DNA from: Gammaproteobacteria bacterium | GTDB lineage: Bacteria > Pseudomonadota > Gammaproteobacteria > JAJFKO01 | Reading direction: 5' to 3' | DNA length: 64,000 nt | NCBI GenBank assembly: GCA_028284465.1 | Contig: JANQRR010000017.1 | Coordinates: 27,948-91,947, forward strand | Part shown: in pieces, positions 54,882 to 55,043 of the stretch | How the letters are laid out: each line of letters starts with the position of its first letter | How positions within the stretch are numbered: the first letter of the stretch is position 1 | Made by a program: the position numbers and the translations under genes | The notes under the pieces: model-generated | Seen by the model: the letters and a program-made list of their open reading frames with translations, nothing else | What the model was told of the DNA's origin: nothing | The model's database searches: none

Positions 54882-55043
54882 TTAGTATCTTCTAAGCAAA
54901 CCACTTTTAGAACTACTTGGTTTTTTGTAGCTAGTGCTTCCACTACTAGCCTTATAGAGCCCTCCTTTCGTTCTATCCATCGTTCCCTTCCCTGCTTTTT
55001 TTAGTTTTTTTGGGTTTGAACGTTTCTTTGATTTGTCTACCAT
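54882..55043 (-). CDS. 53-aa Lys/Ser-rich highly basic small protein (MVDKSKKRSNPKKLKKAGKGTMDRTKGGLYKASSGSTSYKKPSSSKSGLLRRY), histone-H1-tail-like
   Basis: Manual translation; AGGAG 8 nt upstream of ATG; 30 nt downstream of the Arg-rich peptide gene on the same strand; 13 K + 4 R vs 2 D. Confidence 0.5.
   Translation of the reverse strand: MVDKSKKRSNPKKLKKAGKGTMDRTKGGLYKASSGSTSYKKPSSSKSGLLRRY

What the first reader, a model, noticed from the sequence alone, without database searches (positions are those of the whole stretch)
54882..55043. Second, Lys/Ser-rich 53-aa basic ORF immediately downstream of the Arg-rich peptide
Thirty nt after the peptide stop, on the same strand, an AGGAG-ATG ORF encodes MVDKSKKRSNPKKLKKAGKGTMDRTKGGLYKASSGSTSYKKPSSSKSGLLRRY (13 K, 4 R, 10 S), resembling histone H1 C-terminal tails and bacterial Hc1/Hq1-like proteins. 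It is not in the 60-aa ORF track. Two adjacent, likely co-transcribed polycationic micro-proteins, one protamine-like and one H1-like, suggest a nucleic-acid-binding function or mimicry. It lacks a convincing GG leader, so it may be an immunity/chaperone partner (neutralising the polycation inside the cell) or a co-packaged nucleoid protein.
Basis: seen in the sequence. Interest (0 to 1): 0.7.

Follow-up and report, generated by a model that had tools for sequence, protein, structure and literature searches.

The report
Orphan basic mini-ORF in peptide-export cassette
A real but completely unconserved 53-codon lysine/serine-rich reading frame is the last gene-like element of an acquired peptide-export cassette in a Legionella-like bacterium; it is more likely a second, atypical exported peptide than a histone-like or immunity protein, and it may not be functional at all.

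Summary
The ORF exists as described, on the minus strand at 54882-55043. It starts with ATG, has AGGAG 8 nt upstream, and starts 30 nt after the stop of the Arg-rich peptide. It ends in TAATAG and is followed by a strong hairpin.

It is the last element of a roughly 6.7-kb NHLP-type peptide-export cassette: cNMP-binding protein, HlyD, C39-peptidase ABC, second ABC, Arg-rich peptide, then this ORF. A syntenic Legionellales-like relative lacks the whole cassette. Related cassettes carry one to seven small double-glycine-leader peptide genes in this same slot.

The Arg-rich neighbour has a good double-glycine leader (12 bits, 0/2000 shuffles). This ORF does not (-1.8 bits, 371/2000). It has no homologue in any protein, family, structure or metagenome search, so conservation cannot be tested.

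Its positive charge is largely explained by A-rich DNA (P=0.11). There is no Hc1/H1 family match and no membrane segment. A polycation cannot neutralise another polycation.

It lies in the same frame as the Arg-rich gene, separated by one TAA, so it could be a remnant of a split precursor.

Best guess, at low confidence: a co-transcribed second cargo peptide with a non-canonical leader. Interest is modest.

The parts
54882..55043 (-). The finding: a 53-codon Lys/Ser-rich ORF ('pep2'), with ATG start and TAATAG double stop
   Evidence: It was called as a gene in the public collection. It is an orphan.
55052..55057 (-). Shine-Dalgarno-like GAGGAG, 8 nt before the pep2 ATG
   Evidence: AGGAG also occurs 4 times inside the two coding regions, so it is weaker evidence than it looks.
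55044..55073 (-). 30-nt spacer between the pep1 stop and the pep2 start. It is open in the shared frame (WSNSYRGVNI) but T-rich like untranslated DNA.
   Evidence: One search gives the frame and composition. One search gives the T-content test: T = 37% versus 17% in the ORFs, binomial P = 0.008.
54822..54860 (.). Stable hairpin between the convergent ubiB and pep2. It is a likely bidirectional transcript end but has no U-tract.
   Evidence: -32.6 kcal/mol, z = -4.55; inverted repeat I13. The terminator consensus scan did not report it.
55074..55211 (-). 'pep1': a 45-aa precursor. The double-glycine leader is MAKKLSEKRFENVSGG and the core is a 29-aa Arg/Pro/Ser-rich peptide. AGGAG lies 7 nt before the ATG.
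   Evidence: It scores 12.0 bits on a leader profile built without it, with 0/2000 shuffles as good. It fits microcin Motif 2. It is the only GG-leader ORF among 1617 small ORFs in the window.
55269..55296 (-). Promoter-like site (TTGCAA-16-TACAAT) just after the ABC2 stop. It is a possible own promoter for the pep1-pep2 unit.
   Evidence: This is a consensus match only.
55299..57452 (-). ABC permease/ATPase without a peptidase domain (NHLM_micro_ABC2, TIGR03797)
   Evidence: (768.8 bits against a cut-off of 709.4).
57459..59618 (-). C39-peptidase ABC transporter (NHLM_micro_ABC1, TIGR03796). The catalytic Cys22 context ECGAVS and the HF/DP motifs are present.
   Evidence: 910.1 bits against a cut-off of 853.3; Peptidase_C39, E = 4e-28.
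59674..60933 (-). HlyD-type membrane-fusion protein (NHLM_micro_HlyD, TIGR03794)
   Evidence: 265.7 bits against a cut-off of 156.2.
61001..61423 (-). 140-aa cyclic-nucleotide-binding protein, the first gene of the cassette
   Evidence: cNMP_binding, E = 4e-23. It is 58% identical to the first gene of the L002 cassette.

Best explanation
pep2 is the distal cistron of a two-cistron small-peptide unit (pep1-pep2). This unit ends a horizontally acquired NHLP-type peptide-export cassette in an uncultured Legionellales-like gammaproteobacterium. The cassette comprises a cNMP-binding protein, a HlyD adaptor, a C39-peptidase ABC transporter and a second ABC subunit.

Shown: the cassette, its indel status, the ORF and its signals, pep1's double-glycine leader, and that related cassettes carry arrays of small leader-bearing peptide genes in this same slot.

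Inferred: pep2 is translated from its own SD/ATG into a 5.8-kDa, unstructured, polycationic peptide. It is a second cargo of the same exporter with a degenerate, non-canonical leader. It may be cut after Gly27-Gly28 to release the 25-mer LYKASSGSTSYKKPSSSKSGLLRRY (+6), or it may leave uncut. Outside the cell it would act beside the Arg-rich pep1 core on a polyanionic target such as an envelope or nucleic acids.

I put the chance that it is a genuinely translated gene at about 0.65-0.7. The specific cargo role is much less certain.
For: Context.
- TIGR03794, TIGR03796 and TIGR03797 are all above their curated cut-offs, and the C39 catalytic residues are present.
- The cassette is absent between ubiB and the orthologous 409/435-aa membrane-protein gene plus rsmD in the syntenic relative L092. 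pep1 and pep2 therefore travel with the cassette.
- The orthologous cassette in L002 (cNMP 58%, ABC1 55%, ABC2 50% identity) sits at another genomic site. It is followed by three small peptide genes.
- L005, L088 and L090 have 1-7 small peptide genes in the same slot and orientation.

Gene-like signals.
- ATG start, AGGAG at 8 nt, double stop, and a hairpin 21 nt downstream.
- The ORF fills the space between pep1 and the hairpin, and no terminator-like site lies between pep1 and pep2.
- An SD-preceded ORF of this length arose in 0.16% of shuffles.
- The spacer has non-coding-like T content (P = 0.008).
- A gene caller called it.

Similarity to the neighbour.
- It shares pep1's unusual codon choices (AGA/AGG, GGA/GGG).
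- It shares pep1's polycationic, low-hydrophobicity character.
- These are the only two such ORFs in the 64 kb.

Leader-like hints.
- GG at residues 27-28 is at a typical leader length. Haft 2010 gives a mean leader end at 24 aa for TIGR01847-type peptides.
- Relative to that GG, Met is at -7 and Leu at -15.
- The N-terminal 20 residues show 7/20 ungapped identities to the basic L002 leader MSRKKSKNIKDKELNKLSGG (P about 0.007, uncorrected).
Against: - It has no recognisable double-glycine leader. It scores -1.8 bits, and 371/2000 shuffles do as well.
- It fails both published microcin signal regexes and TIGR01847.
- Relative to GG27-28, the -4 residue is Thr and the -12 residue is Ala. [quoted passage not shown]
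- A GG dipeptide arises by chance in 47% of shuffles.
- There is no significant similarity to pep1 (P about 0.3) or to the L002 peptides.
- No homologue exists anywhere, so there is no evidence of purifying selection.
- The net charge is explained by nucleotide composition (P = 0.11).
- Codon usage is unlike the genome's.
- AGGAG is locally frequent.
- pep1 and pep2 share a frame split by a single stop.
Confidence: 0.38

Rival explanations
1. Remnant of a split precursor. pep1 and pep2 were once a single gene of about 109 codons: GG leader, Arg-rich segment, then a long disordered basic tail. This resembles the 89-100-aa peptides of the orthologous L002 cassette. A nonsense mutation (TAA at 55076-55074) cut it in two. 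pep2 is then a leaderless leftover that may or may not still be translated.
For: - The two ATGs are 168 nt apart, so they share a frame. Only one stop and 10 sense codons separate them.
- This explains at once why pep2 is open, leaderless, an orphan, similar to pep1 in codon usage, and has a basic C-terminus like the L002 peptides.
- At 45 aa, pep1 is shorter than every leader-bearing peptide in the related cassettes, which are 60-100 aa.
- The organism belongs to a host-adapted order, where gene decay is common. This last point rests on general knowledge.
Against: - A shared frame with an open 10-codon spacer is expected by chance about 1 time in 6.
- The spacer is T-rich like untranslated DNA (37% versus 17% in the ORFs, P = 0.008; likelihood ratio about 24 by my own arithmetic from those frequencies).
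- The spacer has the look of a ribosome-binding region, with AGGAG, 8 AT-rich nt, then ATG.
- Basic residues switch sharply from Arg to Lys at the boundary.
- pep2 shows no similarity to the tails of the L002 peptides.
- TAA followed by T is a strong stop context (general knowledge), so programmed read-through is unlikely.
Confidence: 0.15
2. Cytoplasmic companion. pep2 stays in the cell as an immunity, chaperone or regulatory partner of pep1, or as an H1/Hc1-like nucleoid protein.
For: - It lacks a leader.
- It sits directly downstream of, and is probably co-transcribed with, a bacteriocin-like structural gene. In class II bacteriocin and microcin operons that is the usual place for the immunity gene (general knowledge; microcin immunity proteins are described in PMC12219008).
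- Its basic, S/K/P-rich composition could bind nucleic acids.
- The host lineage is Legionellales-like. From my own knowledge, untested here, Coxiella in that order makes small basic DNA-binding proteins (Hq1, ScvA).
Against: - Both peptides are polycations (+15 and +17), so charge neutralisation cannot work.
- Microcin immunity proteins are usually inner-membrane proteins. pep2 has no hydrophobic segment (maximum 19-residue hydropathy -0.69).
- There is no match to Hc1, HC2, linker-histone or any other Pfam, NCBIfam or PDB entry at E <= 10.
- Related cassettes carry no leaderless partner gene.
- It lies inside a mobile export cassette, not with chromosome-organisation genes.
Confidence: 0.14
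3. Chance ORF. The stretch is simply the purine-rich 3' untranslated tail of the pep1 transcript, running up to the hairpin shared with ubiB.
For: - No homologue exists.
- The codon-usage score is negative.
- T-poor DNA has few stop codons.
- The charge is explained by base composition.
- SD-like AGGAG is frequent in this stretch.
- ORFs of 40-65 codons are common in the window.
Against: - Only 1.2% of shuffles of the ORF stay open.
- Only 0.16% of region shuffles give an SD-preceded ORF of this length.
- It occupies exactly the cargo slot, in the right orientation.
- pep1, which has a significant leader, shows the same odd codon usage.
- A 3' tail of about 250 nt on a 135-nt gene would be unusual.
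Confidence: 0.15

Closest known systems
Cargo-gene arrays of NHLP-type (TIGR03794/03796/03797) C39-peptidase ABC exporters, and class II microcin / double-glycine peptide systems
   Same: - The same three transport genes are present, all above curated cut-offs.
- Small peptide genes lie directly downstream in the same orientation, as in L002, L005, L088 and L090.
- No modification enzyme is present in the cassette, as with unmodified class II peptides.
- pep1 fits the leader logo of Haft 2010 (Leu, Ser, acidic ... Val ... Gly-Gly).
   Different: - pep2 has no recognisable leader.
- Its sequence is far more cationic and less hydrophobic than the microcins I know of. That comparison is from my own knowledge and was not tested here.
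- Neither an NHLP nor a Nif11 long leader is present.
The three peptides of the orthologous cassette in locus L002 (Logan SRR22388043), with leader MSRKKSKNIKDKELNKLSGG and an Arg/Gly-rich then Pro/Ala/Thr-rich core
   Same: - This is the nearest relative of the cassette: 50-58% identity across cNMP, ABC1 and ABC2.
- The leaders are basic, an Arg-rich segment follows directly after GG, and the tails are long and low-complexity with basic ends.
- pep1 aligns to their leader (E = 0.01).
- The N-terminus of pep2 aligns loosely (7/20 identities).
   Different: - All three L002 peptides carry a clear ...L(S)GG leader, whereas pep2 has ...AGKG.
- pep2 shows no significant local alignment to them (Smith-Waterman P of 0.11-0.28).
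- L002 has no leaderless Lys-rich ORF.
Immunity genes of class II bacteriocin/microcin operons
   Same: Small gene placed immediately after the structural gene on the same transcript.
   Different: These proteins usually span the inner membrane (PMC12219008). pep2 is fully hydrophilic and carries the same charge as the peptide it would have to counter.
Bacterial histone-H1-like proteins (Chlamydia Hc1/Hc2, Coxiella Hq1) and the small basic Coxiella peptide ScvA
   Same: Lys/Ser/Pro-rich, very basic and predicted to be unstructured, in a host-associated gammaproteobacterial lineage. The resemblance itself is recalled from my own knowledge.
   Different: - There is no sequence match to Hc1, HC2 or linker-histone models at E <= 10.
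- At 53 aa it is much shorter than Hc1 or Hq1.
- It is encoded inside a mobile export cassette.
- Its composition is largely a by-product of A-rich DNA.
Leaderless (class IId) cationic bacteriocins such as aureocin A53 and lacticin Q
   Same: About 50 aa, Lys-rich, pI above 10, made without a cleaved leader and exported by ABC transporters (own knowledge).
   Different: Those peptides have Trp- and hydrophobic-rich helical cores (own knowledge). pep2 has GRAVY -1.36. The single-sequence AlphaFold model has no helix, with pTM 0.23.

Membership tests
Double-glycine (GG) leader peptides / class II microcin-type PCAT cargo | Small gene encoded next to a C39-peptidase ABC transporter and its membrane-fusion protein | tested here: met
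   It lies 256 nt downstream of ABC2, on the same strand and within the cassette.
Double-glycine (GG) leader peptides / class II microcin-type PCAT cargo | N-terminal leader of about 15-30 aa ending in Gly-Gly, Gly-Ala or Gly-Ser | tested here: inconclusive
   GG is present at residues 27-28. However, a G[GAS] pair at a leader-like distance occurs in 51% of shuffles of the peptide.
Double-glycine (GG) leader peptides / class II microcin-type PCAT cargo | Conserved leader pattern: hydrophobic residues at -4, -7 and -12, as in the Leu(-12)-X3-Glu(-8)-Leu(-7) consensus | tested here: not met
   - Relative to GG27-28 the residues are Thr-4, Met-7, Thr-8 and Ala-12.
- It scores -1.8 bits on a profile of 13 leaders from related cassettes, and 371/2000 shuffles do as well.
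- It fails microcin Motifs 1 and 2.
- It has no TIGR01847 hit at E <= 10.
- The reference pattern comes from PMC6363468 and PMC2887384.
NHLP / Nif11-type precursors (TIGR03793, TIGR03795, TIGR03798) | Long (about 70-85 aa) leader homologous to the nitrile hydratase alpha subunit or to Nif11 | tested here: not met
   No NCBIfam hit at E <= 10. The whole ORF is only 53 aa.
Two-peptide (class IIb) bacteriocins | Two adjacent co-transcribed peptide genes, each with its own GG leader | tested here: not met
   The genes are adjacent and probably co-transcribed. Only pep1 has the leader.
Class II bacteriocin/microcin immunity proteins | Membrane-spanning or compactly folded small protein encoded beside the structural gene | tested here: not met
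   - The position fits.
- The maximum 19-residue hydropathy is -0.69, so there is no transmembrane segment.
- The AlphaFold2 model has no helices and pTM 0.23.
- No family match was found.
Histone H1-like / Hc1 / Hc2 nucleoid proteins | Sequence membership in the Hc1, HC2 or linker-histone families | tested here: not met
   Zero Pfam families at E <= 10, zero NCBIfam families and zero PDB chains.
Histone H1-like / Hc1 / Hc2 nucleoid proteins | Binds and compacts DNA in the producing cell | not testable with these tools
   This needs EMSA, nucleoid localisation or an over-expression phenotype.
Leaderless (class IId) bacteriocins | Cationic peptide of about 40-55 aa with a hydrophobic or amphipathic helical core | tested here: not met
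   Size and charge fit. However, GRAVY is -1.36 and the model shows no helix.

The most novel reading that the evidence does not exclude
pep2 is a functional, leaderless, H1-tail-like polycation made together with a protamine-like double-glycine peptide from a mobile C39-ABC export cassette in an uncultured, probably host-associated Legionellales bacterium. One possibility is that it is exported by a route that does not need the classical leader, for example through the peptidase-less ABC2 subunit. The other is that it is a new kind of cytoplasmic partner for a polycationic cargo. In either case the pair would act on host or competitor polyanions such as nucleic acids or envelopes.
Probability: 0.08. 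Interest if true: 0.65.

Novelty: new variant of a known kind. Interest (0 to 1): 0.3.

Why it matters
If pep2 is real and exported, C39-peptidase ABC exporters could handle strongly cationic, unstructured peptides that lack the textbook double-glycine leader. That would widen what genome miners should look for beside such transporters.

It would also add a bacteriocin-like peptide export cassette to an uncultured Legionellales-like lineage. A full-text literature search with 'Legionellales' among its terms listed no paper that mentions that order together with bacteriocins or microcins.

If pep2 is only a remnant or a chance frame, the lesson is practical. In purine-rich DNA, lysine-rich 'histone-like' mini-ORFs preceded by SD-like motifs arise easily. 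They need conservation or expression data before they are interpreted.

The better-supported object at this locus is the neighbouring Arg/Pro/Ser-rich double-glycine peptide. The gene calls of the public protein collection do not include it.

Tried and rejected
Homologue searches for pep2. All returned only the query itself or nothing.
- Word-indexed search of 5.8 billion proteins.
- Exhaustive phmmer against 1.84 billion representatives.
- Pfam and NCBIfam at E <= 10.
- PDB at E <= 10.
- Back-translated scan of JGI metagenome contigs. The same scan with the 62-aa pep1 ORF also found nothing.

RNA element. There is no Rfam hit at E <= 1 in 54700-55400, and none at gathering score anywhere in the 64 kb.

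Frame conservation and dN/dS. This was impossible.
- The only other copy, L001, is 100% identical over 12,162 nt and is probably the same sample.
- The nearest relative of the cassette is only 50% identical.
- The odd 31-aa partner in the ubiB cluster (P0123) has an unrelated sequence.

Genome-contig scan. The source genome and its near relatives were not recovered. That scan was wasted.

Paralogy of pep2 with pep1.
- A 30-nt in-frame direct repeat (54913-54942 versus 55147-55176, 70% identity) looked promising.
- Neither the nucleotide nor the protein local alignment beats shuffles (P = 0.30 and 0.29).

Homology of the pep2 N-terminus to the L002 leaders. There are 7/20 ungapped identities (P about 0.007, post hoc), but Smith-Waterman (P = 0.11-0.28) and BLASTP are not significant.

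Is ABC2's N-terminus a C39-like domain? BLASTP against the ABC1 peptidase domain gives E = 0.39, which is inconclusive.

Structure. The single-sequence AlphaFold2 model has pLDDT 76 but pTM 0.23, with only a 3+3-residue hairpin around the GG. It is not informative, so no fold search was run.

Literature. No paper on Legionellales bacteriocins or microcins, or on polycationic PCAT cargo, was found.

Full report
**1. The observation**

The ORF is real. It lies on the minus strand at 54882..55043 and encodes MVDKSKKRSNPKKLKKAGKGTMDRTKGGLYKASSGSTSYKKPSSSKSGLLRRY. The counts are 13 K, 4 R and 10 S. The mass is 5.81 kDa, pI 10.8, GRAVY -1.36 and net charge +15.

GAGGAG lies 8 nt before the ATG. The start is 30 nt after the TAA of the upstream Arg-rich ORF on the same strand. 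The frame ends in TAATAG. Twenty-one nt further on is a strong hairpin at 54822-54860 (-32.6 kcal/mol, z = -4.55). It sits between this ORF and the convergent ubiB, and it has no U-tract on either strand.

No Rfam family matches the region.

**2. Is it more than chance?**

Evidence for:
- In dinucleotide shuffles of 54817-55073, an ATG-ORF of at least 53 codons appears in 2.3%, and one with an SD in 0.16%.
- I screened the window and the fetched comparison loci for intergenic, SD-preceded, polycationic ORFs of 30-120 aa. Only seven turned up. The only two in the window are this ORF and its neighbour.

Evidence against:
- AGGAG occurs 6 times in the 420 nt around the two ORFs.
- The ORF's codon usage is unlike the genome's (per-codon log-likelihood -0.13 against +0.36 +/- 0.08 for real genes), with rare AGA and GGA/GGG codons. 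The neighbour is even more atypical.
- The +15 charge is not beyond that of shuffled versions of the same A-rich DNA (mean +10.5, sd 3.3, P = 0.11). The neighbour's +17 is (P = 0.0006).

**3. Surroundings**

Upstream on the same strand are, in order:
- a 140-aa cNMP-binding protein (61001-61423);
- a HlyD-type adaptor (TIGR03794);
- an ABC transporter with a C39 peptidase domain (TIGR03796, 910 bits);
- a second ABC subunit without a peptidase domain (TIGR03797, 769 bits).

All three transport models score above their curated cut-offs. The catalytic Cys of the peptidase is present. This is the three-gene export cluster defined by Haft et al. 2010 for nitrile-hydratase/Nif11-leader peptides (PMC2887384).

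A promoter-like site (TTGCAA-16-TACAAT, 55296-55269) follows the ABC2 stop. Next comes 'pep1' (55074-55211), with AGGAG 7 nt before its ATG. It encodes MAKKLSEKRFENVSGG followed by KRRPSRRSPSRSTARRRPARRPSRARGRR. The finding ('pep2') follows.

**4. Organism and cassette status**

The best named hits of the adjacent UbiB are Rickettsiella, Legionella, Aquirickettsiella and Tatlockia, at 59-66% identity. The source is therefore a deep, uncultured Legionellales-like gammaproteobacterium.

The most syntenic relative is L092 (GCA_021773175.1). It has ubiE-ubiJ-ubiB, followed after about 0.6 kb by the orthologue of the window's 409-aa membrane protein (37% identity, E = 4e-78) and rsmD. It has no export cassette. 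The roughly 6.7 kb from pep2 to the cNMP gene is therefore an indel, and pep1 and pep2 belong to it.

The nearest cassette, in L002, has cNMP at 58%, ABC1 at 55% and ABC2 at 50% identity. It sits in a different genomic neighbourhood.

**5. What related cassettes carry in this slot**

- L002 has three peptide genes after ABC2. The leaders are MSRKKSKNIKDKELNKLSGG, MTRKKHKLIKDKELNKISGG and MTSRKYKKPLSDEALKKLSGG. Each is followed by Arg/Gly-rich and then Pro/Ala/Thr/Ser-rich low-complexity cores of 69-80 aa with basic ends. The third gene had been mis-called on the opposite strand.
- L005, L088 and L090 carry one to seven peptides of 60-91 aa with ...LSGG...VVGG or ...VAGG leaders.
- None of these loci has a leaderless Lys-rich partner.

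**6. Leader test**

I built a profile from 12 leaders of these relatives, leaving pep1 out.
- pep1 scores 12.0 bits, and none of 2000 shuffles does as well.
- pep2, scored on a profile that also included pep1, gets -1.8 bits, and 371/2000 shuffles do as well.

pep1 is the only GG-leader candidate among 1617 small ORFs in the window.

pep1 fits the published microcin signal Motif 2, and pep2 fits neither motif (PMC12219008).

C39 domains dock leader residues -4, -7 and -12 into hydrophobic pockets. ComA recognises Leu(-12)-X3-Glu(-8)-Leu(-7) (PMC6363468). pep1 has Val-4, Phe-7 and Leu-12. Relative to its only GG (residues 27-28), pep2 has Thr-4, Met-7 and Ala-12. A GG arises by chance in 47% of shuffles.

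**7. Homology**

pep2 has no homologue in any search: 5.8 billion proteins by word index, 1.84 billion representatives by exhaustive phmmer, JGI metagenome contigs, Pfam and NCBIfam at E <= 10, or PDB.

The only other copy, L001, is identical DNA. The refutation test named in the finding, frame conservation in relatives, therefore cannot be run with public data.

Similarity to pep1 is not significant (P about 0.3). Similarity to the L002 leader is suggestive at best (7/20 identities, post hoc P about 0.007; Smith-Waterman not significant).

The single-sequence AlphaFold2 model is essentially coil (pTM 0.23).

**8.

pep1 and pep2 are in the same reading frame. Only the TAA and ten sense codons (WSNSYRGVNI) separate them. 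Read through, the product would be about 109 aa, close to the 89-100 aa of the L002 peptides. pep2 could therefore be the leaderless tail of a precursor that was split by a nonsense mutation.

Points against a recent split:
- The spacer is T-rich like the flanking untranslated DNA (37% versus 17% in the ORFs, P = 0.008).
- The spacer looks like a ribosome-binding region.
- The basic residue switches from Arg to Lys at the boundary.

I keep this as a serious rival (about 0.15).

**9. Weighing the functions**

The neutralising immunity/chaperone idea fails on charge, because both peptides are polycations. It also fails on architecture, because microcin immunity proteins are usually inner-membrane proteins and pep2 has no hydrophobic stretch.

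The H1/Hc1 idea rests on composition only, and A-rich DNA explains much of that composition.

The genomic slot, the orientation, the co-transcription signals and the shared peculiar composition with a bona fide leader peptide all favour 'another peptide of the cargo array'. The missing leader is the main obstacle to that reading.

By rough, subjective weighting of how often each reading would produce what is seen, cargo with a degenerate leader comes out several-fold more likely than a cytoplasmic companion. All readings remain weakly supported.

My estimates:
- translated gene of some kind: about 0.65-0.7;
- atypical second cargo: about 0.38;
- split-precursor remnant: about 0.15;
- cytoplasmic companion: about 0.14;
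- chance ORF: about 0.15.

**10. Verdict**

The locus as a whole is a class-II-microcin-like export cassette with a strikingly Arg-rich cargo in a Legionellales-like genome. The gene calls of the public protein collection do not include that cargo gene, and the cassette is the more solid and more interesting object.

The 53-aa ORF itself is an orphan without conservation evidence, and I rate it of modest interest (0.3).

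Noticed in passing
window 54882-55262 (-): The Arg-rich ORF and the Lys/Ser-rich ORF share one reading frame. A single TAA (55076-55074) and ten sense codons separate them. Read through, they would give a peptide of about 109 aa, similar in length to the peptides of the orthologous cassette in L002.
   Followed up: partly
window 55074-55211 (-): The Arg/Pro/Ser-rich peptide has a statistically supported double-glycine leader (LSEKRFENVSGG). It is the only such ORF in the 64 kb. Neither the 45-aa nor the 62-aa form is in the 15-billion-protein collection, so gene callers missed it.
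   Followed up: partly
window ~54817-61527: The whole export cassette, from the cNMP-binding gene to the two small ORFs, is absent from the otherwise syntenic ubiE-ubiJ-ubiB / membrane-protein / rsmD region of relative L092 (GCA_021773175.1). Its orthologue in L002 sits elsewhere in that genome. It therefore behaves as a mobile or accessory island. I found no flanking repeats.
   Followed up: partly
L002 11068-11427: The public gene call here is a 119-aa ORF on the minus strand. The plus strand (11126-11419) encodes a third double-glycine-leader peptide (MTSRKYKKPLSDEALKKLSGG...) paralogous to its two neighbours, so the call is probably on the wrong strand.
   Followed up: no
window 36312-42926 (+): A 2204-aa ORF has no Pfam family at E <= 1e-5. 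A relative's locus (L093) has a 2239-aa gene with only faint or weak ankyrin-repeat hits near its ubiB. Both may be large effector-like proteins.
   Followed up: no
window 56973-57452 (-) (ABC2 N-terminus): The peptidase-less ABC subunit has about 150 N-terminal residues with no Pfam domain, in front of the membrane domain. In most homologues this subunit is about 970 aa; here the cNMP-binding module is a separate 140-aa gene. Whether the 150 residues form a C39-like substrate-binding domain is unresolved (BLASTP E = 0.39 against the ABC1 peptidase domain).
   Followed up: partly
window ~54992-55012 (-): The ORF contains two A7 runs (CCAAAAAAACTAAAAAAAGCA) encoding KKLKK. These are possible slippage-prone tracts and a reminder that the lysine richness is tied to A-rich DNA.
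   Followed up: no
window 1-64000: No Rfam family, including tRNA, reaches its gathering score anywhere in the 64-kb window.
   Followed up: no
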